Assembly: GCA_025999215.1 (NCBI GenBank)
Contig: AP024679.1
Location: 165,645 to 229,644, forward strand
Source: Candidatus Dojkabacteria bacterium
GTDB taxonomy: Bacteria; Patescibacteriota; Dojkabacteria; J137
Direction of reading: 5' to 3'
DNA length: 64,000 bases
Positions 2,001-31,275 of this stretch are shown here, in pieces. The position numbers and the translations under genes are program-made. A model generated the notes under the pieces. The model made no database searches and was not told the DNA's origin. It saw nothing but the letters and a program-made list of their open reading frames with translations. Positions within the stretch are counted from its first letter, which is position 1. Each line of letters opens with the position of its first letter.

Positions 2001-2035
2001 TTTCAGCTCAAAATGTGTTAAAATCCTAATACAAA

Positions 2036-2152
2036 GTAGTTTTGCCGAACTTTCCTCGAGAAAAGAAGGCGCTGGGGAAGCAGGGTGAAAACCCCTCACT
2101 GTGCCGCAACTGTAATTCCTATGTTCAGGATAAGTCAGGATGCCAGCCTACT
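2036..2152 (+). ncRNA. cobalamin (AdoCbl) riboswitch, compact variant, in the 5' leader of the 2187..3626 CDS
   Basis: A GC-rich island lies in AT-rich DNA. GGGGAAGCAGGGTGAAAACCCCTCACTGTGCCGCAACTGTAA matches the conserved cobalamin core (GGGAAg..GGUGaaAauCC...CacUG.GCCGC.ACUGUaa). The downstream B12-box-like AAGTCAGGATGCCAGCC resembles AGUCAGGAgaCCuGCC. Confidence 0.65.
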
Positions 2153-2186
2153 TTTGAAATTTTAATTAAATCTACGAGCATAGATC

Positions 2187-3626
2187 ATGGAAAATTTTAA
2201 AAATTTTATAGTTTCCTCACCACCTGAAGTAAATGTTCAGAATAATCCAGAGCTTCCAATAGATAATAGTGTTTTTGATTACATTAGGTTTAATATTCCA
2301 AATATAGCACAAATGAACATACCCCTTTTTCTTGATGAGGCAATTGAAGTAGAGGAGGTAGCAAACGCAATTGGTATAGTAGATAATTATGTTACAGAAC
2401 AGATTGCTACATTACTTGCTGAAAACACAAACTGGATAGAATTTTTTGAAAATGAAAATATAAATCCAGAGTTAATTAACCCAAACTTATACATAAACTT
2501 ATTAGACTTAATTCGCAACTCTGGTCTTCAAAAAATTCGTTTTCAATGTGAATACCCTCCAAGCACATTAAATTTTTTGATACAAAGCTGTAGAAAGGCT
2601 TTAGAAGAAGGCGGAGAAAGAGAATGGGTAGAACTAAGAAATTTAGAAACAATAAAAAAACAATTCGATCAAATCAAGGAATCAAATTTACCTAATCAAG
2701 CAATCGTTGAAATAAGCCCACCAATTTATAAAGATCATAAAAAATACATGATTAGAATTTACACTTTTGATTCTCTTGAGAATAAAATTAAATTGGATAT
2801 ATATCATGTTCCATCAACTGAAATCGAAATACTAACGTTTTTGAACACATTAAATGTGGGGTCAAATGAAAAAATAGAAACATGTCAAGGAGTTCAAAGT
2901 TATCCGAACAGAGTATTATCAACTCTATACTTAGTCGATAAAAACAAATTTAACTTAGAAAATTTTATACCTTTTATCAATCAATATAGTTCTGAAATTA
3001 TTGATGTGCACGATCATATAGTAGATTATTTTATTTCAGAAATAATTGAGCGCCCTGAAATCAAAATGCTAAGAAGGCAATTAGCATTCACCGCATTAAG
3101 GCTAAGAAAAAGTGTAATTAATTCAGATAGAATTGAATATACAAAACTTTTTCAGCAATACCGTGAAATTTACAATAAGCTAATTACATTGTGCTTTGTA
3201 TTGACACCCAATCTAACTGTGGAAGGAAGAGAGGCAACACTTGAGGAAAGAAATCGAATCGCGCATAATGTAGCGATAGGAAATGTAACTAGTGAAAAAT
3301 ACAGCATACATGCTCCTGGTCCATGCACTACAATTTCGCTTGGTGGAAAACAAAGAAATGAAGTAAATACTTCTATAAAAACTTACTCAACTGTATTTGG
3401 AGAAGTTAAAATCGATCACGAAACAAATAAAATAACTTGTGTATGTGGAACAACATATTTATTAAATTTTGACTGTGAAGAGGATAAATTCATAAGCGCA
3501 TGTCCGAGTTGTGGTCTTTCTACAGAAAATATATACAAATCGTATAATCATGAAAAAAACCAAAATAATTCAAGTTTATTAGATTTACTTTTAGAAATGT
3601 TTGGCTTTAAGCCAATTGAACAATAA
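2187..3626 (+). CDS. hypothetical 479-aa protein with C-terminal Cys4 zinc ribbon (CxC...CPSCG); putative cobalamin-riboswitch-controlled gene
   Basis: A long clean ORF lies immediately 3' of the riboswitch. It has no signal peptide and matches no family I recognise. The C-terminus reads CVCGTTY...CPSCG. Confidence 0.5.
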   Translation: MENFKNFIVSSPPEVNVQNNPELPIDNSVFDYIRFNIPNIAQMNIPLFLDEAIEVEEVANAIGIVDNYVTEQIATLLAENTNWIEFFENENINPELINPNLYINLLDLIRNSGLQKIRFQCEYPPSTLNFLIQSCRKALEEGGEREWVELRNLETIKKQFDQIKESNLPNQAIVEISPPIYKDHKKYMIRIYTFDSLENKIKLDIYHVPSTEIEILTFLNTLNVGSNEKIETCQGVQSYPNRVLSTLYLVDKNKFNLENFIPFINQYSSEIIDVHDHIVDYFISEIIERPEIKMLRRQLAFTALRLRKSVINSDRIEYTKLFQQYREIYNKLITLCFVLTPNLTVEGREATLEERNRIAHNVAIGNVTSEKYSIHAPGPCTTISLGGKQRNEVNTSIKTYSTVFGEVKIDHETNKITCVCGTTYLLNFDCEEDKFISACPSCGLSTENIYKSYNHEKNQNNSSLLDLLLEMFGFKPIEQ

Positions 3627-3649
3627 TATTTAAAAATGTAAAATAAAAC

Positions 3650-4615
3650 ATGTTTGATTTTTTTATACTTTTTGGTGGTCTGTTATTAGTAATTGAAGGA
3701 GCTAATTTTTTGGTTAAGGGAGCAAGTTCTCTTGCTAAAAAATTTGGACTTTCAGATCTAGTGATTGGCTTGACGGTCGTTGCATTTGGCACTTCTCTTC
3801 CTGAAATGATGGTTAGTGTTTTGGCAGGAATTAATGGCAATTCTGATCTAGTTCTAGGAAATGTTATAGGGTCAAATATTTCTAATATACTTTTGATACT
3901 TGGTTTGACAGCTTTAGTCTCACCGCTACGAGTTGATTTAAGTACAGTAAAAAAACAATTTCCTTTTTTAATTTTTTCAAGTTTGGTGTTAGTAATTTTA
4001 ATGGCAGAAGAATTAATTGAAGGCACTCAAAACCCTTTTATATCGAGACTTGACGGTTTAATTTTATTATCTTTTTTCTTAATTTATATATACTATACTT
4101 TCCTAAACGCTTTCTTGGGGGGTGGCTTAGACACCCACGATGATTACGAAACTAAACCAGTTTTACAATCAGTTGGATGGGTAATTATGGGAGTAGTAGG
4201 GCTTTTTATTGGTGGAGAATTAAGTGTAGGTTCGGCAGAATCAATAGCTATAAAACTTAAAATTGATGAGGCGATAATAGGATTAACCGTTATTGCTGTT
4301 GGTACTTCGTTACCTGAGTTGGTAACAAGTGTGATATCGGCTTATCAAAAGAAAACTGATATTGCTATAGGAAATGTAGTTGGATCAAATATTTTTAATA
4401 CTTTTTGGATATTGGGAGTTAGTAGCCTGGTATCTCCTATAGCTATAGATACCAAACTATATTCAGACGCTATCGTAATGATTATTGCATCAATATTATT
4501 GTTTTTGTTTTTATTTACTTTCAAAAAACAAGTTATCACAAAGAAAGAAGGAGCTTTTTTATTCTCAATATTTCTACTTTACGTCATTTTTAATGTTGTT
4601 AGAGTGGTGGGTTGA
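3650..4615 (+). CDS. yrbG: Ca2+/Na+ antiporter, CaCA family (YrbG-like)
   Basis: Two internal alpha-repeats with GTSLPE motifs (GTSLPEMMVSV and GTSLPELVTSV). The protein is a polytopic membrane protein of about 320 aa. Confidence 0.85.
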   Translation: MFDFFILFGGLLLVIEGANFLVKGASSLAKKFGLSDLVIGLTVVAFGTSLPEMMVSVLAGINGNSDLVLGNVIGSNISNILLILGLTALVSPLRVDLSTVKKQFPFLIFSSLVLVILMAEELIEGTQNPFISRLDGLILLSFFLIYIYYTFLNAFLGGGLDTHDDYETKPVLQSVGWVIMGVVGLFIGGELSVGSAESIAIKLKIDEAIIGLTVIAVGTSLPELVTSVISAYQKKTDIAIGNVVGSNIFNTFWILGVSSLVSPIAIDTKLYSDAIVMIIASILLFLFLFTFKKQVITKKEGAFLFSIFLLYVIFNVVRVVG

Positions 4616-8598: not shown

Positions 8599-9771
8599 AT
8601 GGAAAAATTAAAAATCGCATACATTATTCCAAGATTTCACCCGTTCAAAGGAGGAGCAGAACAAAACACCGAAGCTTTGGCTTTGCGAGCTTGTAAAGAT
8701 GGGCATTCGGTTACTGTTTTGACAACAAACGAACGCTTTAGAAACGAGAAACTACCTAAAATTGAAAATTACAAAGGAATTAAAATAATAAGGATGAATG
8801 CGTTTATCAAAGCGCCTCTCTATGCTGGATTTTATCCTGAATTGTTTTGGCATCTCAGAAAAAATAACTACGATATAATTCATTGCTCTGGAATTGGGTT
8901 TTTGTGGCGGGAAATATGTTTGAGATTAAACAAAAAGAAAAATACTCTGTACGTATGTACTCCTCACGGACCTTTCATGGCTCTAAACGATACTCAAGGA
9001 ATCAGAGGATTAGCAAAAAAATACTATACAAAAAAATTAAGAAAGTTTCTTAATAATCTTTATGATATTTTTGTTCAAGTAAATCCAAAACAAGAAAAAT
9101 GGATGAGTGAAGAATACAACATATCAAAAGAAAAAATTGTACTAATCCCAAACGGAATTGACAAAGAGTACATAGCTCCAAAAATTTACTCAGAAAAATT
9201 TAAAAGAAAACCAGTCATAACTTACATCGGCAGACTTGCCAACTACAAAGGCGTTCACTTTGTATTAGAAGCTTTATATAAAATTAAAAAATCTAAAGTT
9301 AAAGTTCCTCCATTTGAATTTTGGGTAATGGGTAGAAGTCAGGGAGATTACACCAGCTATTTACAGAACTTAATAAAAAAATTCTCTCTGGAAGATGAAG
9401 TTAAGTTAATATTTTCTCCAACTGATGAAAAAAGAGATGAGATTTTATTCAAACACTCTCATATTCACATACTACCTAGCAAGTGGGAAGCAACAGGAAT
9501 AGTTTTGCTTGAAGCAATGGCAAAGGGTAATGCGCTAATTTCTACAAAACAAAACGAAATGCATGATCTAATAATACAAGAGGGAGTTAATGGCTTTACT
9601 TATAATTACGATGATGTAAACAAACTGAAAAAAATACTAATTGAGCTATTAAATAACCCAAAACTTTGCATTGAAATGTCAGAAAAAAATCTTGAAAAGG
9701 TAAAAAATTTTACCTGGGAAGCAAGTTACGAACTCTACAAAAACCAAGTTATTTCAAAAGCAAAAATATGA
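8599..9771 (+). CDS. glycosyltransferase family 4 (GT-B, group 1)
   Basis: N-terminal IAYIIPRFHPFKGGAEQ and a C-terminal EATGIVLLEAMAKGNALIST sequence (E-x7-E region) are typical of GT4. Confidence 0.8.
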   Translation: MEKLKIAYIIPRFHPFKGGAEQNTEALALRACKDGHSVTVLTTNERFRNEKLPKIENYKGIKIIRMNAFIKAPLYAGFYPELFWHLRKNNYDIIHCSGIGFLWREICLRLNKKKNTLYVCTPHGPFMALNDTQGIRGLAKKYYTKKLRKFLNNLYDIFVQVNPKQEKWMSEEYNISKEKIVLIPNGIDKEYIAPKIYSEKFKRKPVITYIGRLANYKGVHFVLEALYKIKKSKVKVPPFEFWVMGRSQGDYTSYLQNLIKKFSLEDEVKLIFSPTDEKRDEILFKHSHIHILPSKWEATGIVLLEAMAKGNALISTKQNEMHDLIIQEGVNGFTYNYDDVNKLKKILIELLNNPKLCIEMSEKNLEKVKNFTWEASYELYKNQVISKAKI

Positions 9772-10472
9772 AACTCTACATTGTTGGGACTTCCATTGGA
9801 AATATTGACGACATATCACCAAGAGCGATCAAAGTTCTAAGCGAAGCTGATGTGATACTAGCGGAAGATACTAGAGTTTTTGGAAAATTAAAAAGCATTT
9901 TGTTAGATAGATACAAAGATTTAAATTTCAATCCTTTACAAAAAGTAATTTCTTATCGAGAACAAAATCATGATAGGGTGATTGATTCAATAATTAAGTA
10001 TTTAGAGAGCAACAAAATGGTTGTGCAAATATCAGATAGTGGCATGCCTGGAATATCTGATCCCGGTTTTCTTTTATACAAAAGAGTTATTAATGAAGGC
10101 TTTGAATTAGATGTTATACCTGGACCAAGTAGTGTTATTACTGGATTGGTTGCATCAGGTTTACCAACTGATAGGTTTGTGTTTTTAGGATTTCTTCCCA
10201 GAAAAAAATCTAAAGCAAAAAATTTGCTAGAAATTGCTTTTAAAACTAATTTCACATTAATTTGCTTTGAATCACCATTTAGAATTAGAAAACTTTTAGA
10301 ACTTGTGGAAGAAATAGATAAAAATACGCAAATTGCCCTGTGCAAAGAACTAACAAAAAAACATCAGAAAATTTATAGAGGCACGGCCGTATCTTTACTC
10401 AATGAACTGCCATCAAAGATCAGTGGAGAATTTGTTGTGGTTATGAAAAAAACTACTGTAGATCAACTCTAA
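9768..10472 (+). CDS. rsmI: 16S rRNA (cytidine1402-2'-O)-methyltransferase RsmI
   Basis: LYIVGTSIGNIDDISPRAIKVLSEADVILAEDTR is the characteristic RsmI N-terminus. The protein is tetrapyrrole-methylase fold. Confidence 0.85.
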   Translation: MKLYIVGTSIGNIDDISPRAIKVLSEADVILAEDTRVFGKLKSILLDRYKDLNFNPLQKVISYREQNHDRVIDSIIKYLESNKMVVQISDSGMPGISDPGFLLYKRVINEGFELDVIPGPSSVITGLVASGLPTDRFVFLGFLPRKKSKAKNLLEIAFKTNFTLICFESPFRIRKLLELVEEIDKNTQIALCKELTKKHQKIYRGTAVSLLNELPSKISGEFVVVMKKTTVDQL

Positions 10473-11985
10473 AACTCAAAGCTTCACTTATGTGATCATC
10501 TAAAACATCAAAACTTCCTTCCAAGTCTGCAATAGTGCGAGCTACTTTTAATATTCTGGTGTATGAACGAGCTGATAAATTAAGCCTGTCTACAGCAAGT
10601 TTAAGTAGCGACTTTGAAGAGTCGGGTAGGTTTATAAATTTTTCTAATTGTTTTTGCCCCATGTCTGAATTTGTGTATAAATTTTGGTTTATAAACCTTT
10701 CTTTTTGTATTTTCCTAGCTGTCTCAACTCTTTTTCTTACCTGGCTTGAACTTTCTTGATTTTGTGAGTTTTCTATTAATTTTTGATGCTCGACCTTGTT
10801 TACATGGACCAACAAATCTATGCGGTCAAGTATTGGACCAGATATTTTCTTTTGATAAAGCTGAACTTCTCTTTGAGTACAAGTGCATTTTTTGTTAGGA
10901 TCACCCCTAAAACCGCATTTACAAGGATTCATAGCAGCAACCAAAATGAAATTTGCCGGAAAAGATAAGCTTCCAGACGCCCGAGAAATTGTAACTACTT
11001 TATCTTCTAGCGGTTGCCGGAGAGCTTCCAAAGCCTTAGAACTAAACTCTGGAAATTCATCTAGAAATAAAACACCTCTGTGTGCAAGTGAAATTTCTCC
11101 AGGTTTTGGATTTGTTCCACCACCGACCAGTGCTACCTGAGAAGATGTATGGTGCGGTTTTCTAAATGGCCTTTTTTCAATCAAAGGAACATCTTTTGAG
11201 GTTAATCCTGCAATGCTATAAATTTGAGTTACTTCAAGTTTTTCATTTAAATCCATTTCTGGGAGAATTGAAGGTATACATTTTGAAAGCATTGTTTTTC
11301 CTGACCCAGGAACTCCTGACAACAAAATGTTGTGTCCACCTGCTGCCGCTATTTCTAGAGCTCTCTTGGCATGCTCTTGCCCTTTGACATACTTTAAATC
11401 ATTTTCTAAAAAATTTTTTCTGGTTGTTTTTTCCGTTCTGTTTGGAATACTAAACTCATAACCTTCTTCAAAATATTTGATTATCTCTTTAAGATGTTTA
11501 ACTCCGTACAGATTAATGTCTTTAACTGTAGATGCTTCTAAAATATTGTCATAAGGAATAAACGCTTCACTAAATCCCAAATTTTTAATCTGAGCTATTA
11601 TTGGTAAAATTCCTCTAATTGGTCTAACTCTGCCATCTAAAGCTAACTCACCCAAAAAAATTTTTCCTTCAGAATCAAAATTTAATTGATTAGTAGCTTT
11701 CATGTATGCAACTGCCATCGGTAAATCAAAACCTGCTCCAGACTTGGTTAATTCTGCTGGTGCTAAGTTTAAAATGATTCTCATAGCGTTAAATTTGCCT
11801 CCTGAAGATCTGATTGCAGAAGGGATTCTATCTTTTGCTTCTTGAGTAGATTTATCTGCTAAACCAACAATAACTGTTCGGGCTTGCCCCGTAGAATTAT
11901 ACGCTTCAACCTCTATAATGTTGCAATACAACCCTGTGAGCACTGCTGAATACACTTTCGCTAATTTCTGCTTTTGCATTTGCAC
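10453..11985 (-). CDS. comM: YifB/ComM-family Mg-chelatase-like AAA+ ATPase
   Basis: An N-terminal Lon-like/ChlI N domain is followed by Walker A LLSGVPGSGKTML, an arginine-finger region, and the C-terminal Mg_chelatase_C domain. Confidence 0.85.
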   Translation of the reverse strand: MQMQKQKLAKVYSAVLTGLYCNIIEVEAYNSTGQARTVIVGLADKSTQEAKDRIPSAIRSSGGKFNAMRIILNLAPAELTKSGAGFDLPMAVAYMKATNQLNFDSEGKIFLGELALDGRVRPIRGILPIIAQIKNLGFSEAFIPYDNILEASTVKDINLYGVKHLKEIIKYFEEGYEFSIPNRTEKTTRKNFLENDLKYVKGQEHAKRALEIAAAGGHNILLSGVPGSGKTMLSKCIPSILPEMDLNEKLEVTQIYSIAGLTSKDVPLIEKRPFRKPHHTSSQVALVGGGTNPKPGEISLAHRGVLFLDEFPEFSSKALEALRQPLEDKVVTISRASGSLSFPANFILVAAMNPCKCGFRGDPNKKCTCTQREVQLYQKKISGPILDRIDLLVHVNKVEHQKLIENSQNQESSSQVRKRVETARKIQKERFINQNLYTNSDMGQKQLEKFINLPDSSKSLLKLAVDRLNLSARSYTRILKVARTIADLEGSFDVLDDHISEALSFRVDLQ

Positions 11986-12082: not shown

Positions 12083-12103
12083 ATAGTAGTTAGAAAACTA
12101 CCC

Positions 12104-13549
12104 TCAATCTAAGAATCCCGAAGCAAATAAGTCATCAATAAACTCATCTGCTAACCAAAGCTTTGATCCGTCCGGTGCAATGTATGGATCCTGAAAAGTT
12201 GCACCGTATTTATCGCTGTATCCCGGCCAACCTGGTTGAGCATATATTTTATTACCTTTTGTATATACAGGTAGTACATAACTGTCTGAATCTTTATAAT
12301 ATTCATATTTATTCAAATAAATTCCACCGTTTATTTGATCAGTAATTTCTTGATTATTGATATATACATGCATAGATCTAATGACTCGACCACTGTTAGG
12401 ACCAGATCCACAATTGTAAAGTTTAATGAATATACCATTGTTCAAAAGTATCGCACCACCAGAGGAAGCACAAATACTTTGGTTTTTACCCGTGCTCTGG
12501 CTAATTTGGATTTTCTCCTGTAGTAATAAATCAAATTCATCTGTTGCTAATTCAAAGAACCCTGGTAAAAAAGGAAATGTTGTAAGATATCCTACTCTTG
12601 GCGTTGGATCTGGCGCTGGTTGTGGCTGTGGCGCCGGTTGTGGCTGTTGTGCTGGTTGCGGTTGTTGCGCTTGCGGCTGTGGTTCTGGTTCTTCTATTTT
12701 CTCCTCTTCAAATCTTAAGCTTGCTAGCACTCCTAAATTATCTCCAAAACCTTCACTATCTCTTTCTTTGTTGTACTCCACAAATTCCCTATCCAATTCT
12801 TTTGCTACTATCTCTCTCACTTCTAACCCTATCGCTTCTTTTCCTTGTTCTACTTCCACCTTTCCTTCTCCTTCCAATACTTCTACTTTGCTTTCATATA
12901 CCACTAACTTGCTTGTTTCTCCTTTTATTACACTAAATGCTGTTCCTTTTGCTACATAGTTGTATTCTCCTGCCTTTACTTCATATGTCCTTCTTTCTAC
13001 CTTTGCTACTCTTGAATATACTTCTCCTTCCATTAACTCCACTTCATACTCATCTTCTTTCAAACTATTCATCTTTACCTTTGTATTCTTATTCAATCTC
13101 ATATAACTTCCGTCTTGTAACATCACTTCTATTCTTCCTTCTTTCGTCTCTAGCTCATCACTCTCTTTTACCTCCATTTCTTGACTTGCTTCCTCACCAT
13201 TTATCATAACTTCTCCTTCTATTTCTGTTACTTTTCCTATGTGTGTTGCTACCTTTGCTTCCTCTTCAAAACTTTGTTGTACTTCTGCTTTTTCTTCCCT
13301 TGTTAATAAATAGTACCCACTTGGTACTGCTACCGTTAGTGCTAATGCTGACACTCCCAGCATCGCTATTTGTTTTTTGCCTAACTTCATAAACTGGTTT
13401 AGTAAAATGTAAAATGTGGGCTTTTCAAAACTTTTATCAAGTTTTTTTTCAATTTTTAGTTTTAAATCCACCGATGGAGTAGACTCTAGGTCTGAAAATT
13501 TATCTAAAAAATTTGTATTTTCTTGACTAAGTTTTTTCATAAGCCTCAC
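12104..13549 (-). CDS. membrane-spanning anti-sigma factor, variant 1 (shared N-terminal 310 aa plus unique C-terminal extracytoplasmic domain)
   Basis: Its start is 1 nt from the stop of the upstream ECF sigma gene, implying translational coupling. It has a cytoplasmic N-terminus, one TM helix (IAMLGVSALALTVAVPSGYYLL), a PQ-repeat linker, and then a unique 170-aa C-terminus. Confidence 0.55.
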   Translation of the reverse strand: MRLMKKLSQENTNFLDKFSDLESTPSVDLKLKIEKKLDKSFEKPTFYILLNQFMKLGKKQIAMLGVSALALTVAVPSGYYLLTREEKAEVQQSFEEEAKVATHIGKVTEIEGEVMINGEEASQEMEVKESDELETKEGRIEVMLQDGSYMRLNKNTKVKMNSLKEDEYEVELMEGEVYSRVAKVERRTYEVKAGEYNYVAKGTAFSVIKGETSKLVVYESKVEVLEGEGKVEVEQGKEAIGLEVREIVAKELDREFVEYNKERDSEGFGDNLGVLASLRFEEEKIEEPEPQPQAQQPQPAQQPQPAPQPQPAPDPTPRVGYLTTFPFLPGFFELATDEFDLLLQEKIQISQSTGKNQSICASSGGAILLNNGIFIKLYNCGSGPNSGRVIRSMHVYINNQEITDQINGGIYLNKYEYYKDSDSYVLPVYTKGNKIYAQPGWPGYSDKYGATFQDPYIAPDGSKLWLADEFIDDLFASGFLD

Positions 13550-14071
13550 TTAATTAGTATCAAATGGTGTACAAATAATTAATTTTTTTAAAGATTTTAT
13601 TGCTCTTTTCTGAGTAGTTTTAACATAGTTCATGTTTTTACCTAAATGTTTACAAATTTCTTGCAGACTCATTTTTTCTAAAAATCTTAATGTTGCTACC
13701 TCTCTTTGACTTTTGGGAAGTTTTTGAATAAATGGTCTTATTCGCTCCTCTGGCGTTTTTCCTTTAAAAAACTCAATAAACTTTTCAACATGAGTTTCTT
13801 CAAAATTTTCAATTTCAGATATATTTATTTCTCTTCTTTTGTATTTTTTCTTTAGTTCTTTGATGAATAAATTTTTGGCAATTCCATACAAAAAATATTT
13901 ATAACTTTCAATCTCAACTCCCTTATGAATACTTTGTGAAAACATTAAAAAAGTATCAGAAGTCAAGTCTTCTGCTACTTCTTTATTAAGAAATTTAAAA
14001 TAAAAAAATTTATATATATCATCAAAGTATTGTTCGAAAATAACTTTTATTATTCTAGGGTCTTGGGGCAT
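13550..14071 (-). CDS. ECF-type RNA polymerase sigma-70 family factor (copy 1)
   Basis: Region 2 (AEDLTSDTFLMF) and region 4 HTH (REVATLRFLEKMSLQEICKHLGKNMNYVKTTQKRAIKSLKKL) are present in 173 aa. Confidence 0.75.
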   Translation of the reverse strand: MPQDPRIIKVIFEQYFDDIYKFFYFKFLNKEVAEDLTSDTFLMFSQSIHKGVEIESYKYFLYGIAKNLFIKELKKKYKRREINISEIENFEETHVEKFIEFFKGKTPEERIRPFIQKLPKSQREVATLRFLEKMSLQEICKHLGKNMNYVKTTQKRAIKSLKKLIICTPFDTN

Positions 14072-14182
14072 TAATAATTTATTTTCTTAAAAACTAACTA
14101 CTCGTAATTATACTATATAGAAAAAAGTTTTATAATGTTTGTAAGTAATTACAAGCTTTGCTAAAATCCACCTAGATTTTGT

Positions 14183-14256
14183 CGGGGAGTAGTTCAGTTG
14201 GCTAGAACGCACGGCTGGGGGTCGTGAGGTCGCAGGTTCAAGTCCTGTCTCCCCGA
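14183..14256 (+). tRNA. tRNA-Pro (anticodon GGG), copy 1
   Basis: Cloverleaf: acceptor CGGGGAG/CTCCCCG, D-stem GTTC/GAAC, anticodon stem CACGG/TCGTG with loop CUGGGGG, T-arm GCAGG-TTCAAGT-CCTGT. It is 74 nt with no encoded CCA. Confidence 0.8.
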
Positions 14257-14281
14257 TGATTTTTAACTTTTAAGTTAAGAT

Positions 14282-14917
14282 ATGAGCAAAAATCCAAATT
14301 CTAGTTTAGAAAAAATGACAATTCCGCAGGATAGTGTAGTTGCAGAATCTATATACAACATATTTGAAAAAGTTAACAATTTCATGGAAAATGCGCCTGA
14401 TATTATTGATAAAAAACTTCCAGAATTTATATCTCATTTATTTACATTGGTAAATATGAAAACTTTTAATTTAGTTGAAGAATTAGTTAACCATCCTCAA
14501 AATGTATCAGATACTCTTAAATATGAACTTAAAACCAAATTTAATTCCAATGAAAATTTAAGCAAAATAATCAATGCCTTGACAAACAAGATTCTAGTTA
14601 AAGTAATGCTAAGAGGAGAAGCATCAAAAGACTCCTCTAATTACATAGATAAAAATTTTGATAAAACTCCCAGCAATCTAGTGATTGATGGGCTTATAGA
14701 AATTTTGATGTTTTGTGTAAACATACATCATATTATTTGTGATGCATATAATACAAATTACAATAATTCTTTACCTGGCAAGATTCAAAGTATTCTGAGA
14801 ATTTTGGAATTTTTTGGACTTAATTATGAAGTCAAATATGATAATGATAAGCGCTATATCAAAATTACAAATAGCTTAAATAATCTACCATTTATATTTG
14901 ATTATACCCTAAATTAG
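14282..14917 (+). CDS. hypothetical protein
   Basis: A clean ORF downstream of tRNA copy 1 with no recognised domain. Confidence 0.4.
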   Translation: MSKNPNSSLEKMTIPQDSVVAESIYNIFEKVNNFMENAPDIIDKKLPEFISHLFTLVNMKTFNLVEELVNHPQNVSDTLKYELKTKFNSNENLSKIINALTNKILVKVMLRGEASKDSSNYIDKNFDKTPSNLVIDGLIEILMFCVNIHHIICDAYNTNYNNSLPGKIQSILRILEFFGLNYEVKYDNDKRYIKITNSLNNLPFIFDYTLN

Positions 14918-15094
14918 ATCCATCAATTCTTTTTAAACCATCAGGACCTATAGCCACGGCATATAATCAAGAGAAATTTTTAAACAAGATAAATGGTATT
15001 AACTCACAACCGGAAAAGATAATCTAGGACCTCTATCAATCTTTTCAAAATCTTTTAAAACTTTTAAAAAGATTGTTCATTGTATTAAGATACA

Positions 15095-15131
15095 AAAAGA
15101 AAAGCGCTCATAAGAGCGCTTTTCTTTTTTA
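15095..15131. terminator. bidirectional rho-independent terminator hairpin (GCGCTC-ATAA-GAGCGC), diverged paralog of the 12047..12082 terminator
   Basis: AAAGCGCTCATAAGAGCGCTTTTCTTTTTT lies 3' of the anti-sigma gene 15143..16546. The stem carries compensatory changes relative to copy 1. Confidence 0.7.
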
Positions 15132-15142
15132 ATTTAAACTTA

Positions 15143-16546
15143 TCATAGAGAAAAATTCATTGTCCCTATAATTGTTTGCAACTCTGACTTTACTTGATTA
15201 AGCAAATCTGAGTCGTTTTTAAAAGCATATTCAATTCTTATGCCAGAGTATGAGTCTGAGGGGTTTTCGTAATATGCTAAAAGCCCTATCTTTCCATCAT
15301 ACCTAGTAGAAAAATAAACATTAAATATCTTTTGGTTTGCAGTGGTGAGTGTGTACTGTTGAAGCACATTAGATGGTCCACCACCTCCACATAAAGGACA
15401 CATGTTGTAGCTTATCCTATATGTAGAACTAAACTCTGAACTAGAAAATGTTACATCTTGTTGATTGTTGCCATAAACTGCACTAAATACTGCATTTCCA
15501 TATTCTGATGGATAATAGAAGCTAAAATCAAAATTAGGACTAGTAGCAAATGAATTACTACCAGATGGTGCAGGATGACCTTTTGATATATCTACAGGCG
15601 TTGGATCTGGCGCTGGTTGTGGCTGTGGCGCCGGTTGTGGCTGTTGTGCTGGTTGCGGTTGTTGCGCTTGCGGCTGTGGTTCTGGTTCTTCTATTTTCTC
15701 CTCTTCAAATCTTAAGCTTGCTAGCACTCCTAAATTATCTCCAAAACCTTCACTATCTCTTTCTTTGTTGTACTCCACAAATTCCCTATCCAATTCTTTT
15801 GCTACTATCTCTCTCACTTCTAACCCTATCGCTTCTTTTCCTTGTTCTACTTCCACCTTTCCTTCTCCTTCCAATACTTCTACTTTGCTTTCATATACCA
15901 CTAACTTGCTTGTTTCTCCTTTTATTACACTAAATGCTGTTCCTTTTGCTACATAGTTGTATTCTCCTGCCTTTACTTCATATGTCCTTCTTTCTACCTT
16001 TGCTACTCTTGAATATACTTCTCCTTCCATTAACTCCACTTCATACTCATCTTCTTTCAAACTATTCATCTTTACCTTTGTATTCTTATTCAATCTCATA
16101 TAACTTCCGTCTTGTAACATCACTTCTATTCTTCCTTCTTTCGTCTCTAGCTCATCACTCTCTTTTACCTCCATTTCTTGACTTGCTTCCTCACCATTTA
16201 TCATAACTTCTCCTTCTATTTCTGTTACTTTTCCTATGTGTGTTGCTACCTTTGCTTCCTCTTCAAAACTTTGTTGTACTTCTGCTTTTTCTTCCCTTGT
16301 TAATAAATAGTACCCACTTGGTACTGCTACCGTTAGTGCTAATGCTGACACTCCCAGCATTGCTATTTGTTTTTTGCCTAACTTCATAAACTGGTTTAGT
16401 AAAATGTAAAATGTGGGCTTTTCAAAACTTTTATCAAGTTTTTTTTCAATTTTTAGTTTTAAATCCACCGATGGAGTAGACTCTAGGTCTGAAAATTTAT
16501 CTAAAAAATTTGTATTTTCTTGACTAAGTTTTTTCATAAGCCTCAC
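15143..16546 (-). CDS. membrane-spanning anti-sigma factor, variant 2 (identical N-terminal 310 aa, different C-terminal domain)
   Basis: The N-terminal 310 aa are identical to the 12104..13549 product. The C-terminal 157 aa are unrelated and include a CPLCGGGG motif. Confidence 0.55.
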   Translation of the reverse strand: MRLMKKLSQENTNFLDKFSDLESTPSVDLKLKIEKKLDKSFEKPTFYILLNQFMKLGKKQIAMLGVSALALTVAVPSGYYLLTREEKAEVQQSFEEEAKVATHIGKVTEIEGEVMINGEEASQEMEVKESDELETKEGRIEVMLQDGSYMRLNKNTKVKMNSLKEDEYEVELMEGEVYSRVAKVERRTYEVKAGEYNYVAKGTAFSVIKGETSKLVVYESKVEVLEGEGKVEVEQGKEAIGLEVREIVAKELDREFVEYNKERDSEGFGDNLGVLASLRFEEEKIEEPEPQPQAQQPQPAQQPQPAPQPQPAPDPTPVDISKGHPAPSGSNSFATSPNFDFSFYYPSEYGNAVFSAVYGNNQQDVTFSSSEFSSTYRISYNMCPLCGGGGPSNVLQQYTLTTANQKIFNVYFSTRYDGKIGLLAYYENPSDSYSGIRIEYAFKNDSDLLNQVKSELQTIIGTMNFSL

Positions 16547-17068
16547 TTAATTAGTATCAAATGGTGTACAAATAATTAATTTTTTTAAAGATTTTATTGC
16601 TCTTTTTTGAGTAGTTTTAACATAGTTCATGTTTTTACCTAAATGTTTACAAATTTCTTGCAGACTCATTTTTTCTAAAAATCTTAATGTTGCTACCTCT
16701 CTTTGACTTTTGGGAAGTTTTTGAATAAATGGTCTTATTCGCTCCTCTGGCGTTTTTCCTTTAAAAAACTCAATAAACTTTTCAACATGAGTTTCTTCAA
16801 AATTTTCAATTTCAGATATATTTATTTCTCTTCTTTTGTATTTTTTCTTTAGTTCTTTGATGAATAAATTTTTGGCAATTCCATACAAAAAATATTTATA
16901 ACTTTCAATCTCAACTCCCTTATGAATACTTTGTGAAAACATTAAAAAAGTATCAGAAGTCAAGTCTTCTGCTACTTCTTTATTAAGAAATTTAAAATAA
17001 AAAAATTTATATATATCATCAAAGTATTGTTCGAAAATAACTTTTATTATTCTAGGGTCTTGGGGCAT
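16547..17068 (-). CDS. ECF-type RNA polymerase sigma-70 family factor (copy 2, identical protein)
   Basis: The product is 100% identical to the 13550..14071 product. Confidence 0.75.
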   Translation of the reverse strand: MPQDPRIIKVIFEQYFDDIYKFFYFKFLNKEVAEDLTSDTFLMFSQSIHKGVEIESYKYFLYGIAKNLFIKELKKKYKRREINISEIENFEETHVEKFIEFFKGKTPEERIRPFIQKLPKSQREVATLRFLEKMSLQEICKHLGKNMNYVKTTQKRAIKSLKKLIICTPFDTN

Positions 17069-17179
17069 TAATAATTTATTTTCTTAAAAACTAACTACTC
17101 GTAATTATACTATATAGAAAAAAGTTTTATAATGTTTGTAAGTAATTACAAGCTTTGTTAAAATCCACCTAGATTTTGT

Positions 17180-17253
17180 CGGGGAGTAGTTCAGTTGGCT
17201 AGAACGCACGGCTGGGGGTCGTGAGGTCGCAGGTTCAAGTCCTGTCTCCCCGA
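17180..17253 (+). tRNA. tRNA-Pro (anticodon GGG), copy 2
   Basis: Identical to 14183..14256. Confidence 0.8.
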
Positions 17254-17421
17254 TGATCAGAAGCTTTTACAATTTTTTAAAGCATTGTTTAGAATGGTGA
17301 TTTTTATGAATAGGTAAGTATTTCGATCCTATTCATAATAAATACGAGAAGAATGACATTGTCTCGATTGATACGATACTAATGTATAACGCGAACTGAT
17401 ATACTTATTTAATGAGTTTTT

Positions 17422-29865: not shown

Positions 29866-31275
29866 ATGCCAATGAATATTAAAGATAAAAATCAGCTTTG
29901 GAAAACAGTTCTTGCTCAAATAGAAATTAAACTCGATGCTCCAGCCCAATTTAAAACATTTTTTCAAGATACTAAGTTGATAGATTTACAGGGAAATAAA
30001 GCAGTGATTGGCGTAATAAATCCTTATACAGCTGAATGGCTCAAAGCAAAGCATGAAAAATTAATAAAAGATACCATTAGTTATGTTTACGGTGAAGAGT
30101 TAAAACCAGAATTTCATGTTTATCAAGATACTAACATAAAAGAATTAGAAAAAGAATTTGATTACGAAGAAGCTCCATTGTTAGCTACACAGCATGGTGT
30201 TTTAAATTCTGTAATTGATGAGATTAATAAAGCGGGGCTTAATACCAAGTATTCTTTTTCTAACTTCATAGTCGGTAATCCCAATCGTATTGCTCATGCC
30301 GCAGCATTGGCTGTTGTAGATAATTTGGGAGCAATTTATAATCCATTGTTTATTTATGGCCCAACGGGTGTAGGTAAGACCCATCTAGCCCAAGCAATAG
30401 GCAGAGCAGTTTTAGAAAGAAACATAGCAAAAAAAATAAAATATACTCCATCTGAGGGTTTTTTAAACGACATGGTAAAGGCAATCAAGACTCGCCAACA
30501 AGAAAAATTTAGAGCAATTTACAGGCCACTAGACATTTTAATAATCGATGATATGCAGTTAATCTCTAAATGGGTGGCTACTCAAGAAGAGTTTTTTAAT
30601 ACTTTCAACGAACTTTATAATGCAGGTAAGCAAATTATTATGATTGCGGATAGAAAACCTGATGATATAAAAAATTTAGAATCTAGATTGAGATCCAGAA
30701 TGCAAGGAGGAATGGTAGTAGAAATCGCAAAACCTGATTTTGAGATGAGATTGGCGATTGCGCAACAAAAAGCAGAGAGTAGTGGTTTTGATATTAGTAA
30801 ACAAGCCTTAGAATTCATTGCTAGATCAATTACAGATAATGTTAGAGCCTTAGAGGGTGCTATACAAAAAGTAGCCTTATTTAATCAAATGAAACCAAAT
30901 GGCCACCTAACTTTGGAGGAAATAGCTCATACTTTGAATATAGATTCGCAATCAAAGAGAAATTCAATTAAAATATCAACTGTATTGAAAGAAGTTGCAA
31001 AAGAGTTTAATGTCAGTGTAAAGGAATTAAAGGGCCCTAAACGAACAAAAGATGTTGCATTAGCTCGTCAGGTTGCTATGTACATTTTAAGGGAAGAATT
31101 CGATTATAAACTGGAAGATATTGCGAGGTTTCTAAATAGAAAAGATCACACCACGGTAATGCATGCAGTTGATAAAATAAAAAGTAAAACCATGATTCAA
31201 GATGGATTCCATGCTCAAATATCTAAAATAATATCAGCAATAAATGAATCAAGCATGACTGATGAAGAATTATGA
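29866..31275 (+). CDS. dnaA: chromosomal replication initiator DnaA
   Basis: AAA+ Walker [11 protein letters not shown], and a C-terminal DNA-binding domain ([11 protein letters not shown]). It ends with an ATGA overlap into yidD. Confidence 0.95.

What the first reader, a model, noticed from the sequence alone, without database searches (positions are those of the whole stretch)
2036..3626. Compact cobalamin riboswitch controlling an unrecognisable 479-aa zinc-ribbon protein
The only GC-rich structured leader in this part of the window carries the cobalamin-riboswitch core and a B12-box-like element directly upstream of a long ORF with no recognisable family. That ORF is cytoplasmic (no signal peptide), has an acidic N-terminal half, and ends in a Cys4 ribbon (CVCGTTY…CPSCG). 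Cobalamin riboswitches normally gate B12 uptake or salvage genes, or B12-independent isozymes. A reduced genome with no evident B12 biosynthesis genes in this window that keeps a B12 sensor in front of an orphan protein therefore points to an uncharacterised B12-responsive function, such as a novel B12-independent enzyme, a B12 chaperone, or a salvage factor. Upstream on the same strand sit a RecD/PIF1-like helicase and a ferric-reductase-like flavoprotein.
Basis: partly seen in the sequence, partly recalled or inferred. Interest (0 to 1): 0.75.

Follow-up and report, generated by a model that had tools for sequence, protein, structure and literature searches.

The report
B12 riboswitch guarding an unknown protein
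A genuine vitamin-B12-sensing RNA switch sits in front of a conserved protein of no known family or fold, which context in related ultra-small bacteria suggests is a missing helper in processing scavenged B12.

Summary
Rfam places a cobalamin riboswitch (RF00174, 42.1 bits; gathering score 31.5) at 2050-2165 on the + strand, 21 nt before a 479-aa ORF (2187-3626). That ORF has no Pfam, NCBIfam, PDB-sequence or fold match.

The ORF is not an orphan. An exhaustive HMMER search and riboswitch-guided scans found eight relatives (20-35% identity, 25 invariant residues), mostly in Dojkabacteria. All seven with retrievable DNA carry the same riboswitch core and an invariant-loop hairpin next to the start codon. 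That hairpin shows compensatory changes in 3 of 5 pairs. Its loop is complementary to aptamer loop L5, which fits a B12-dependent kissing-loop translational OFF switch.

The family shares ordered motifs (LGE, RE..E, SPP, G.C, Cys4 ribbon) and secondary-structure order with a much larger uncharacterised CPR family (at least 244 clusters). That family sits in NrdR-NrdJ-PduO adenosyltransferase-X operons and is once fused to PduO. The homology is probable but not proven.

Best reading: a B12-repressed corrinoid-handling accessory protein of the salvage/adenosylation route. The biochemical function remains unknown. The riboswitch is ordinary; the protein family is new and worth testing.

The parts
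2016..2024 (+). Putative extended -10 promoter element (TGtTAAAAT), 12 nt before the conserved start of the leader
   Evidence: Read directly from the sequence. A -10-like hexamer lies 7-12 nt upstream of the conserved GTAGT leader start in the window, L001, L002, L003 and L067. It was not reported by the two-hexamer consensus scan. This is an inference.
2036..2165 (+). Cobalamin riboswitch aptamer. The conserved leader starts at about 2036; the Rfam match is 2050-2165.
   Evidence: RF00174 at 42.1 bits against a gathering score of 31.5. The leader alignment of four loci is conserved from TAGT at about 2037 onwards.
2097..2113 (+). P5/L5 core CACTGTGCCGCAACTGT. Loop L5 is U-GCCG, the proposed kissing-loop partner.
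   Evidence: Invariant in all 8 family leaders. Its position in the model comes from the cmscan alignment.
2132..2148 (+). B12 box (J6/3 and 3' strand of P3): AAGTCAGGATGCCAGCC
   Evidence: Aligned to the model consensus AGCCAGGAGACCuGCC. AAGTCAGGAT is invariant in the four-locus alignment.
2170..2185 (+). Expression-platform hairpin P13: stem ATCTA/TAGAT, loop CGAGCA (2175-2180). It ends 1 nt before the start codon.
   Evidence: The loop ACGAGCA is invariant in 8 leaders. The stem is 100% paired, with compensatory changes in 3 of 5 pairs. It folds as a hairpin in every leader, and L5/L13 duplex prediction gives -6.4 kcal/mol. No terminator was found in the leader.
2187..3626 (+). 479-aa ORF, a member of a previously undescribed protein family. 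It is cytoplasmic, has an acidic N-terminus, and no Pfam, NCBIfam or PDB match.
   Evidence: It is identical to 'hypothetical protein KatS3mg085_155 [Candidatus Dojkabacteria bacterium]'.
2415..2423 (+). Motif 1: L77-A-E79 (family consensus LGE), at the C-terminal end of a long helix
   Evidence: L77 and E79 are invariant in 9 sequences. The helix spans 55-80 in the model. It aligns with the LGE motif of the wider family.
2616..2633 (+). Motif 2: E144-R-E-W-V-E149 (ERE.VE), at the start of a helix
   Evidence: E144, R145, E146, E149 and N152 are invariant. It aligns with RE.AE of the wider family.
2715..2729 (+). Motif 3: S177-P-P-I-Y181 (SPP.Y), at the end of a beta strand and followed by a beta hairpin
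   Evidence: E175, S177, P178, P179, Y181, M188 and R190 are invariant. It aligns with SPPG of the wider family.
3318..3326 (+). Motif 4: G378-P-C380, an invariant Gly-x-Cys in a low-confidence (probably mobile) loop
   Evidence: G378 and C380 are invariant. pLDDT is below 50 for 376-395. It aligns with GSCG of the wider family, which is also in a disordered segment.
3438..3512 (+). Cys4 ribbon: C418-V-C420 ... C439-P-S-C442
   Evidence: All four Cys are invariant. The profile gives weak matches to rubredoxin, TFIIE and ribosomal Zn ribbons. hhalign against the wider family gives 86% probability over this segment.
3567..3623 (+). Hydrophobic C-terminal tail (LLDLLLEMFGF...IEQ). A tail of this kind is present in all 9 family members and absent from the wider family.
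   Evidence: Alignment. Mean hydrophobicity of the tails is 0.38-0.70 with a low helical moment. Its function is unknown; membrane association is an inference.
3650..4615 (+). Downstream Na+/Ca2+-exchanger-family gene, 23 nt after the ORF. It may be co-transcribed, but it is not a conserved partner.
   Evidence: Pfam Na_Ca_ex, E = 2.6e-66. The same adjacency occurs only in the syntenic locus L001. It is absent in L003, L004, L057, L065 and L067.

Best explanation
The leader (about 2036-2186) is a compact cobalamin riboswitch that works as a translational OFF switch.

Proposed mechanism: when B12 is bound, aptamer loop L5 (UGCCG) docks onto the loop of hairpin P13 (CG[A]GCA, with one bulged A). 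P13 ends 1 nt before the AUG. In a genome that hardly uses Shine-Dalgarno sequences, this locks a structured element onto the initiation region and keeps the 30S subunit off. The 479-aa protein is therefore made only when B12 is scarce.

The protein belongs to a previously undescribed cytoplasmic family. It has an alpha/beta domain plus a helical bundle carrying invariant acidic and polar motifs, then a mobile invariant Gly-x-Cys loop, then a Cys4 ribbon.

My best inference is that it is a corrinoid-handling accessory of B12 salvage. It would bind or process incoming cobalamin (ligand removal, reduction or hand-off) upstream of a PduO-type adenosyltransferase that feeds the B12-dependent ribonucleotide reductase NrdJ.

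Shown: the riboswitch, its conserved linkage to this family, the conserved hairpin, and the lack of any known family or fold.
Inferred: the kissing-loop mechanism, the homology to the PduO-associated family, and the biochemical role.
For: Riboswitch:
- RF00174 at 42.1 bits (gathering score 31.5) on the + strand.
- No terminator in the leader.

Conserved linkage:
- Only four relatives exist among 1.84 billion representative proteins.
- All three with DNA carry RF00174 upstream at 43.7, 38.5 and 45.3 bits. L003 is in a different neighbourhood.
- Four more members were found behind the same L5 core.

Hairpin and kissing loop:
- The hairpin loop ACGAGCA is invariant. The stem is 100% paired with 3 of 5 compensatory pairs.
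- L5 and L13 are complementary with one bulge. [quoted passage not shown]
- Only 4 of 56 genes in the window have an SD-like 4-mer.

Protein:
- 25 invariant positions across 9 sequences that are 20-35% identical.
- No Pfam, NCBIfam or PDB match. No fold match.

Link to the wider family:
- Ordered motifs LGE / RE..E / SPP / G.C / ribbon align in register. There are 12 conserved identities, against 3 for a reversed control and 2-10 for block-shuffled controls.
- Global hhalign gives 90.9% probability, E = 1.4e-7, against 0.1% for the reversed control.
- Reciprocal weak HMM hits rank above decoys.
- The two AF2 models have the same order of secondary-structure elements around the motifs.

Context of the wider family:
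- NrdR-NrdJ-PduO-X operons, with PduO and X overlapping.
- The operon riboswitch -> X -> DUF6580 -> PduO in L049.
- A PduO::X fusion protein, P0011.
- Cbl riboswitches before X or before PduO-X.
Against: - Homology to the PduO-associated family is not statistically secure outside the Cys4 ribbon. The N-terminal part alone gives hhalign E = 0.066, and default local hhalign finds only the ribbon.
- No NrdJ, PduO, DUF6580 or DUF4430 gene lies in the 64-kb window, in the additional ~8 kb of left flank (L124, Pfam labels only), or in the 8-14 kb around the other family members. The functional link is therefore indirect for this family.
- Four of the eight relatives were found through the riboswitch itself, which biases the linkage count.
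- Rfam scores for L004 (27.9 bits) and L067 (36.3 bits) are below the gathering score, and L065 is not detected at all.
- The kissing-loop duplex is short, and 12% of shuffled loops pair as well. The kissing-loop bases do not vary, so covariation cannot test them.
- In L002 and L003 the hairpin ends about 20 nt before the start codon.
- The AF2 model of the window protein is only moderate (pLDDT 64.5).
- No cobalamin-binding motif such as DxHxxG is present, and no His is invariant.
Confidence: 0.5

Rival explanations
1. The protein is a B12-independent substitute for a B12-dependent enzyme (for example a back-up for NrdJ or for another B12 enzyme). It would be switched off when B12 is available, like metE or nrdAB/nrdDG behind cobalamin riboswitches in other bacteria.
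For: - OFF-type riboswitch logic fits this reading. That B12-independent isozymes are regulated this way is established knowledge.
- An invariant Cys and acidic residues could form an active site.
- In the wider family the gene lies next to nrdJ.
Against: - The probable relatives are co-operonic, overlapping and once fused with the PduO adenosyltransferase, whose only role is to make AdoCbl. A B12-independent bypass would not be expected there.
- There is no similarity to RNR, MetE or any enzyme fold.
- The conserved core of 350-480 aa is too small for an RNR barrel.
- No radical-cofactor motifs are present.
Confidence: 0.15
2. The protein is a B12- or metal-responsive regulator or sensor. A PAS-like ligand-binding domain would be coupled to a nucleic-acid-binding zinc ribbon.
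For: - The ribbon profile weakly resembles TFIIE and ribosomal zinc ribbons.
Against: - No HTH or output domain is present.
- The fusion and translational coupling with an enzyme, PduO, point to metabolism rather than regulation.
Confidence: 0.1
3. The protein acts in zinc or cobalt handling rather than on the corrinoid itself, for example as a metal store or chaperone linked to B12 status.
For: - In L065, and in L004 by similarity, the gene is flanked by a Fur-family regulator, a ZIP transporter and a COG0523 CobW-type GTPase.
- The protein has an invariant Cys4 site plus one further invariant Cys.
Against: - Those neighbours are on other strands or in other transcription units, and are absent from the window, L001, L003, L057 and L067.
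- The regulator in front of the gene senses B12, not a metal ion.
Confidence: 0.1
4. The real target of the riboswitch is the downstream Na+/Ca2+-exchanger-family membrane protein (3650-4615), acting as a B12 or cobalt transporter. The 479-aa ORF would be incidental.
For: - The gap to the next gene is only 23 nt, and no terminator was found.
- The same arrangement occurs in L001.
Against: - The exchanger gene follows the family gene only in the two syntenic genomes. The riboswitch-ORF pair is kept in all eight loci.
- A promoter-like site precedes the exchanger gene (3616-3644).
Confidence: 0.05

Closest known systems
Cobalamin riboswitches that regulate through an L5-L13 kissing loop (env8HyCbl, class II / Rfam RF01689, and the RF00174 clan CL00101)
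   Same: - The core four-way junction, the GGGAA J3/4, the B12 box and the P5 loop all match the model.
- It has no P6 peripheral extension, like class II.
- A stem-loop directly before the start codon has a loop complementary to L5 with an unpaired purine. This matches the description in PMC5028336.
- There is no terminator, so control is at translation.
   Different: - It scores best with RF00174, not RF01689.
- L13 cannot be acting as a Shine-Dalgarno site. The genome is almost SD-free, and the hairpin lies from 1 to about 25 nt from the start codon in most relatives, further in L065.
- Six of the eight leaders carry an extra variable hairpin between P1 and P13.
- Ligand selectivity was not determined.
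Unnamed 'hypothetical protein' family of CPR bacteria encoded in NrdR-NrdJ-PduO-X clusters (for example P0008; P0117 = COX79_05470 of Candidatus Levybacteria; at least 244 clusters)
   Same: - The ordered motifs LGE, RE..E, SPP, G.C and the C-terminal Cys4 ribbon are shared.
- The order of secondary-structure elements around them is the same.
- Both are cytoplasmic, and both lie behind cobalamin riboswitches with the same L5 core.
   Different: - Sequence similarity outside the ribbon is not significant on its own (E = 0.066).
- The window family is longer (479-675 aa against about 350-400). It has an extra N-terminal helical region and a hydrophobic C-terminal tail.
- It is monocistronic and not next to NrdJ or PduO.
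Cobalamin-processing and trafficking proteins: CblC/MMACHC, CblD/MMADHC, the BtuM Cys-Co decyanase, and the PduS cobalamin reductase (named from my own knowledge of the field)
   Same: The proposed role is similar: handling incoming cobalamin before adenosylation by a PduO-type transferase. A single essential cysteine is plausible chemistry, as in BtuM and MMADHC.
   Different: No sequence or fold similarity to any of them was detected. No flavin or Fe-S cluster motifs are present. This is an analogy only, and no activity was tested.
Cys4 knuckle domains: DPH3/CSL zinc finger, rubredoxin, and the nigerythrin C-terminal domain
   Same: The C-terminal segment has two Cys pairs (CxC ... CxxC in the window protein; CxxC ... 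CxxC in its relatives). Weak matches: E = 0.25, 0.1-0.5, and nigerythrin at E = 0.0013 for a wider-family member.
   Different: All matches are below the family thresholds and cover only about 35 residues. Whether the site binds Zn (structural) or Fe (redox) cannot be told from sequence.

Membership tests
Rfam RF00174 Cobalamin riboswitch (clan CL00101) | Covariance-model score at or above the curated gathering score, on the strand of the downstream gene | tested here: met
   42.1 bits against 31.5, + strand, model positions 1-189.
Rfam RF00174 Cobalamin riboswitch (clan CL00101) | Conserved core: GGGAA J3/4, the P4 T-loop-like hairpin, P5, and the B12 box (AGYCAGGA..CC.GCC) | tested here: met
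   The cmscan alignment shows GGGGAAG, GGUGAAAACCC, CUGU-GCCGCAACUGUAA and AAGUCAGGAUGCCAGCC at high posterior probability. These are invariant or nearly so in relatives.
Rfam RF00174 Cobalamin riboswitch (clan CL00101) | Location in the 5' leader of a gene, conserved across relatives | tested here: met
   Found upstream of the homologous gene in L001, L002, L003 and L057 at or above the gathering score. L067 scores 36.3 against 36.5 (RF01689). L004 is below the gathering score. L065 was detected only by the conserved core and hairpin.
Rfam RF00174 Cobalamin riboswitch (clan CL00101) | Binding of a cobalamin and ligand-dependent change in expression | not testable with these tools
   Needs in-line probing or ITC, and reporter assays.
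Kissing-loop (L5-L13) translational cobalamin switches, class II type (RF01689) | Lack of the P6 peripheral extension | tested here: met
   9 nt where the RF00174 model has 62.
Kissing-loop (L5-L13) translational cobalamin switches, class II type (RF01689) | Best match is to the class II model | tested here: not met
   RF00174 is the best-scoring clan member for the window. RF01689 is best for the wider-family loci and for L067 and L004.
Kissing-loop (L5-L13) translational cobalamin switches, class II type (RF01689) | A stem-loop at the translation start whose loop pairs with L5, with at least one unpaired nucleotide | tested here: inconclusive
   The hairpin is supported by covariation and the loop is invariant. 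UGCCG pairs with CG(A)GCA at -6.4 kcal/mol. However, 12% of shuffled loops pair as well, and the kissing-loop bases do not vary, so the pairing itself is untested.
Known B12-regulated protein families (BtuB/BtuF/BtuCD, MetE, NrdAB/NrdDG, Cob/Cbi, DUF4430, DUF6580, PduO) | Profile-HMM match above the family threshold | tested here: not met
   No Pfam or NCBIfam family for the window protein or for any of the 9 family members. tblastn with NrdJ, PduO, DUF6580 and DUF4430 queries finds nothing in the window.
PduO-associated 'X' family of CPR bacteria (unnamed; alignment A5) | Ordered invariant motifs LGE ... RE.AE ... SPPG ... GSCG ... CxxC-CxxC | tested here: met
   All five are present, in the same order and in register.
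PduO-associated 'X' family of CPR bacteria (unnamed; alignment A5) | Statistically significant profile-profile similarity over the whole domain | tested here: inconclusive
   Global hhalign gives 90.9% probability, E = 1.4e-7, but this is driven by the ribbon. Without the ribbon, E = 0.066 against 0.58 for the reversed control. Cross-HMM hits are E = 0.004-0.43, above decoys.
PduO-associated 'X' family of CPR bacteria (unnamed; alignment A5) | Gene neighbourhood with the PduO adenosyltransferase and NrdJ | tested here: not met
   Absent from the window and from all family loci within 8-14 kb. Present in L010, L026, L034, L045, L049, L099 and L126-L129.
PduO-associated 'X' family of CPR bacteria (unnamed; alignment A5) | Same three-dimensional fold | tested here: inconclusive
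   The order of secondary-structure elements agrees. The two models could not be superposed with the tools available, and the window model is only pLDDT 64.5.

The most novel reading that the evidence does not exclude
The window protein and the PduO-associated CPR proteins form one new superfamily of cobalamin-processing proteins with a new fold.

Using the mobile invariant cysteine, and perhaps a redox-active Fe(Cys)4 rather than a Zn(Cys)4 centre, they would strip the upper ligand from scavenged corrinoids and/or reduce them. They would then hand cob(II)alamin to the PduO adenosyltransferase.

That would supply, in ultra-small bacteria, the functions performed by CblC/CblD or PduS elsewhere.
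Probability: 0.3. Interest if true: 0.8.

Novelty: new variant of a known kind. Interest (0 to 1): 0.62.

Why it matters
CPR/Patescibacteria have tiny genomes and cannot make B12. Yet many depend on a B12-dependent ribonucleotide reductase to make DNA precursors. How they take up, process and adenosylate scavenged corrinoids is essentially unstudied; full-text searches found no paper linking cobalamin riboswitches with these lineages.

A riboswitch is a direct, protein-independent label of B12-related function. Here it marks a conserved protein family with no known domain or fold.

The probable link to a family of at least 244 clusters that is operonic with, overlapping and once fused to the PduO adenosyltransferase yields a concrete, testable candidate. 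It could fill a missing step (cobalamin reduction, ligand removal or hand-off) in bacterial B12 salvage.

The leader is also a natural example of kissing-loop riboswitch control in an organism that initiates translation almost without Shine-Dalgarno sequences.

Tried and rejected
- The word-indexed homologue search with the protein alone found only the protein itself. With the 5-sequence alignment it missed even its own members.
- Protein-pattern scans of genome contigs and metagenome contigs found nothing. I switched to DNA patterns from the riboswitch.
- AFDB Foldseek was not available.
The window model therefore rests on 5 sequences (pLDDT 64.5).
- Profile search against PDB sequences, per-member Pfam at E <= 1, and NCBIfam returned only zinc-ribbon noise.
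- I considered whether the ARL2_Bind_BART hit (17.7 bits, below the cut-off) meant anything. It occurs in 1 of 9 members, so I rejected it.
- I considered a transcription terminator. None is present.
- I considered GAG in the hairpin loop as a Shine-Dalgarno site. I rejected it because its spacing varies from 5 to 24 nt and the genome is SD-poor.
- I tested whether other Pfam-less riboswitch-linked CPR ORFs (the L024/L015/L022, L122 and L059 groups) belong to the same superfamily. The signals are weak (E about 1e-3 to 1e-5 in some modes) and they lack the SPP motif. This is not claimed.
- Two look-ups meant to extend beyond the window failed because the ORF starts differ from the recorded gene calls. 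The look-up with P0001 added about 8 kb on the left with no B12 genes.
- The TP_methylase gene (9768-10472) and the ChlI-like gene (10453-11985) were considered as B12-biosynthesis leads. They are judged to be housekeeping families (RsmI-like and YifB/ComM-like). This rests on my own knowledge and was not tested.
Full report
**1. The observation**

- A scan of the whole window against Rfam 15 finds one riboswitch: RF00174 (Cobalamin) at 2050-2165 on the + strand, 42.1 bits against a gathering score of 31.5.
- The local alignment covers the whole model (positions 1-189). It shows the GGGAA junction, the P4 hairpin, P5/L5 and the B12 box (AAGUCAGGAUGCCAGCC, 2132-2148).
- The element is compact. 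It has 9 nt where the model's P6 extension has 62, and 2 nt where another variable region has 18.
- It is GC-rich for this genome: 0.466 against 0.318, in the top ~1% of 116-nt windows.
- Its predicted folding energy is no better than shuffled sequence (z = -0.49). The case therefore rests on the covariance model and on comparative data.
- No intrinsic terminator lies in the leader.

The ORF is also as described.
- It spans 2187-3626 and encodes 479 aa.
- It has no Pfam family above threshold, no NCBIfam family and no relative among PDB sequences. The only PDB hits are weak Cys4-knuckle matches.
- It has no TM segment, an acidic N-terminal half (pI 4.5), and a C418-V-C420 ... C439-P-S-C442 ribbon.
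- The upstream genes are a ferric-reductase-like FAD/NAD protein and a RecD-like helicase.
- A source names the protein 'hypothetical protein KatS3mg085_155 [Candidatus Dojkabacteria bacterium]'. The host is therefore a member of the Candidate Phyla Radiation (CPR/Patescibacteria).

**2. The protein is not an orphan, and its riboswitch linkage is conserved**

- An exhaustive HMMER search of 1.84 billion representative proteins found four relatives: P0002 (E = 7e-41, full length), P0003, P0004 and P0005.
- DNA was available for three of them.
  - L001 is syntenic with the window.
  - L002 is a short contig.
  - L003 has entirely different neighbours.
- All three carry an RF00174 match above the gathering score directly upstream on the coding strand: 43.7, 38.5 and 45.3 bits.
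- DNA-pattern scans used the invariant L5 core, with and without the downstream hairpin motif. They brought in 120 more loci.
- An HMM of the family found four further members among their ORFs: L004, L057 and L065 (both Dojkabacteria) and L067 (labelled Saccharibacteria).
- The nine proteins are 20-35% identical and share 25 invariant positions: R34, L77, E79, F119, E144, R145, E146, E149, N152, E175, S177, P178, P179, Y181, M188, R190, P209, N241, L244, G378, C380, C418, C420, C439 and C442.
- Gene neighbourhoods differ among the lineages. The Na/Ca-exchanger gene that follows the ORF here recurs only in the syntenic L001. The conserved unit is the riboswitch plus this gene.

**3. How the switch most likely works**

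- In all eight leaders a small hairpin lies just before the start codon.
  - In the window it spans 2170-2185 and ends 1 nt before the AUG.
  - In L001 it overlaps the AUG.
  - In the other six leaders it ends up to ~25 nt before the start codon called here. The exception is L065, where it ends about 50 nt before; some of these starts are uncertain.
- Its loop ACGAGCA is invariant.
- Its 5-bp stem is paired in every sequence. Three of the five pairs show compensatory changes (A-U/G-U/G-C; C-G to U-A; U-A to C-G).
- The loop CG(A)GCA is complementary to the invariant aptamer loop L5 (UGCCG) with one bulged A. The predicted duplex energy is -6.4 kcal/mol.
- This matches the architecture described for kissing-loop cobalamin riboswitches. 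[quoted passage not shown]
- One difference stands out. In env8HyCbl, L13 holds the ribosome-binding site. Here only 4 of 56 genes in the window have an SD-like 4-mer, and the distance from the loop's GAG to the start codon varies from 5 to 24 nt.
- I therefore infer that B12-dependent docking represses translation by fixing a structured, aptamer-tethered element onto an initiation region that otherwise needs to be open and A/U-rich.
- A -10-like hexamer 7-12 nt upstream of the conserved leader start in several loci suggests the unit has its own promoter.
- The pairing itself could not be tested by covariation because the loop bases never vary. In addition, 12% of shuffled loops pair equally well. 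The kissing loop remains an inference.

**4. What the protein is**

- An AF2 model from five sequences is of moderate quality (pLDDT 64.5, pTM 0.54). Its parts, in order, are:
  - N-terminal helices.
  - An alpha/beta domain carrying ERE.VE and SPP.Y.
  - A helical bundle.
  - A disordered loop with the invariant G-P-C.
  - The Cys4 ribbon.
  - C-terminal helices.

The useful lead came from the other loci that share the riboswitch core. In CPR genomes that core precedes the following:
- DUF4430 proteins, in 13 loci.
- A PduO adenosyltransferase (L025).
- A secreted alpha/alpha-toroid protein (L017).
- Many Pfam-less ORFs.

One group of these ORFs (L010, L026, L034, L045, L049, L099, L121) shows the same ordered motifs as the window family: LGE, RE.AE, SPPG, GSCG and a C-terminal CxxC...CxxC.

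A search with their alignment returned 244 proteins. All are 'hypothetical' and none has a Pfam domain. The exception is P0011, which is a seamless PduO-adenosyltransferase::X fusion.

Their neighbourhoods are consistent:
- NrdR - NrdJ (class II, B12-dependent RNR) - PduO - X. This also holds in three loci retrieved by protein identity alone.
- PduO and X overlap by a few bases in two of those loci.
- L049 has the operon riboswitch - X - DUF6580 membrane protein - PduO.
- Cobalamin riboswitches (RF01689) lie before X or before PduO-X.

A 61-sequence alignment of this wider family gave a confident model (pLDDT 83.8, pTM 0.73).
- It has no counterpart among solved structures.
- Foldseek's best hit is E = 0.036 with TM about 0.1.

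**5. Is the window family related to that wider family?**

Evidence for:
- Five motifs lie in the same order and register. Without the ribbon there are 12 aligned conserved identities (L-G-E, R-E-E, S-P-P, N, G-C). The reversed control gives 3, and 20 block-shuffled controls give 2-10.
- Global hhalign gives 90.9% probability, E = 1.4e-7, against 0.1% for the reversed control.
- Reciprocal HMM hits rank above all decoys: A5 N-part to P0004 at E = 0.004 and to the window protein at 0.43; A3 N-part to L013 at 0.012 and to L049 at 0.032.
- The two models have the same order of secondary-structure elements, with each motif on the equivalent element.
- Both families share the riboswitch context.

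Evidence against:
- Default local hhalign aligns only the ribbon (86%).
- The N-terminal part alone gives E = 0.066.
- The window family is longer, has a hydrophobic C-terminal tail, and is never next to NrdJ or PduO in the DNA available.

I rate the homology as probable (about 70%) but unproven.

**6. Best explanation and rivals**

Cobalamin riboswitches that repress translation typically control B12 uptake or salvage genes, or B12-independent isozymes. This is established knowledge.

For this family I favour a salvage or processing role. Its probable relatives are transcribed with, translationally coupled to and once fused to the enzyme that makes AdoCbl. They lie beside the enzyme that consumes it and beside a candidate transporter.

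The invariant Gly-x-Cys sits in a mobile loop next to a Cys4 centre. This would suit thiol-based chemistry on cobalt or an electron-transfer role, but that is speculation.

The rivals are given separately in the report:
- A B12-independent isozyme (0.15).
- A PAS-like, zinc-ribbon regulator (0.10).
- A metal-handling protein, suggested by the Fur/ZIP/COG0523 neighbours in L065 and L004 (0.10).
- Control of the downstream exchanger gene (0.05).

**7. Novelty and verdict**

- The riboswitch is a new member of a well-known class, with a modest twist: kissing-loop control in an almost SD-free genome.
- The regulated protein belongs to a family with no description, domain or fold in any library searched. 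No paper in the library links cobalamin riboswitches with CPR bacteria.
- The wider PduO-associated family is large and equally uncharacterised.
- I score the whole as a new variant of a known kind of system: a B12-riboswitch-controlled B12-related gene whose protein component is new. Interest is 0.62.

Noticed in passing
window 12100-17260: A tandem duplication of about 3 kb. Positions 12600-12899 and 15597-15896 are 100% identical, with a spacing of 2997. Each copy carries a FecR-domain gene (12104-13549 / 15143-16546), a 173-aa ORF (13550-14071 / 16547-17068) and a tRNA (14183-14256 / 17180-17253).
   Followed up: partly
window, all ORFs of at least 150 aa: The genome is almost free of Shine-Dalgarno sequences. 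Only 4 of 56 genes have an SD-like 4-mer at -20..-4, and the leaders are A/U-rich.
   Followed up: partly
L065 2429-3576 and 6075-7118 (similar arrangement in L004): The family gene is flanked by a Fur-family regulator and a ZIP transporter (divergent) and by a COG0523 CobW/CobW_C GTPase (convergent). This suggests a possible zinc or cobalt homeostasis neighbourhood.
   Followed up: partly
L049 138-211 and 276-368; L099 3821-3894 and 3034-3152; also L045 and L121: Some CPR B12 clusters carry two cobalamin-riboswitch elements. They are either in tandem before X, or one lies before PduO and a second before X. The second element is often below the Rfam gathering score.
   Followed up: partly
L126 (P0011, 289-1905): A natural fusion of a PduO-type cobalamin adenosyltransferase (PF01923) with the uncharacterised X protein. 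It is preceded by a DUF6580 membrane-protein gene. This is a single sequence on a 5.3-kb contig.
   Followed up: yes
L034 958-3774; L126 1932-4665; L127 7111-9898; L128 7171-9971: X is repeatedly followed by an ORF of about 140 aa with no family and by a DUF8128/TrwB/HerA-like ATPase of about 790 aa. Whether this pair belongs to the B12 cluster is unknown.
   Followed up: no
L024 6021-7787, L015 285-1931, L022 4599-5969, L122 1471-3066, L059 809-3397, L016, L066 1072-3969, L109 4755-7427, L061 6045-7202, L032 4315-5895: Many further ORFs directly behind the same riboswitch core in CPR genomes have no Pfam family. Several (L024, L015, L022, L122) also end in a CxxC...CxxC ribbon. Their relation to the X family is weak or unproven.
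   Followed up: partly
13 CPR loci, e.g. L043 5533-6168; L017 7075-7797: The same riboswitch core precedes membrane-anchored DUF4430 proteins. Once it precedes a secreted prenyltransferase/SQHop-cyclase-like alpha/alpha-toroid protein. DUF6580 membrane proteins recur in 13 loci. Together these are probable B12-capture and uptake components of CPR bacteria.
   Followed up: partly
L010 2237-5869: The class II ribonucleotide reductase gene carries a LAGLIDADG intein (1211 aa in total).
   Followed up: no
L003 751-1524: A heliorhodopsin gene lies on a contig that carries a member of the family.
   Followed up: no
L128 12713-12902 (-): A group I intron match (RF00028, 68 bits) near the B12 cluster of a CPR contig.
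   Followed up: no
window 3567-3623 and the C-termini of all 9 family members: Every member ends in a hydrophobic tail, for example GIFGILFDLFGSVFSIF in L057. Four of the nine end in the motif IEQ (one of them IEQI). The tail is absent from the wider PduO-associated family. It may be a membrane anchor or a recognition tail; it is unexplained.
   Followed up: partly
window 29866-31275: The dnaA gene lies in the window, so the chromosomal origin region is probably nearby.
   Followed up: no
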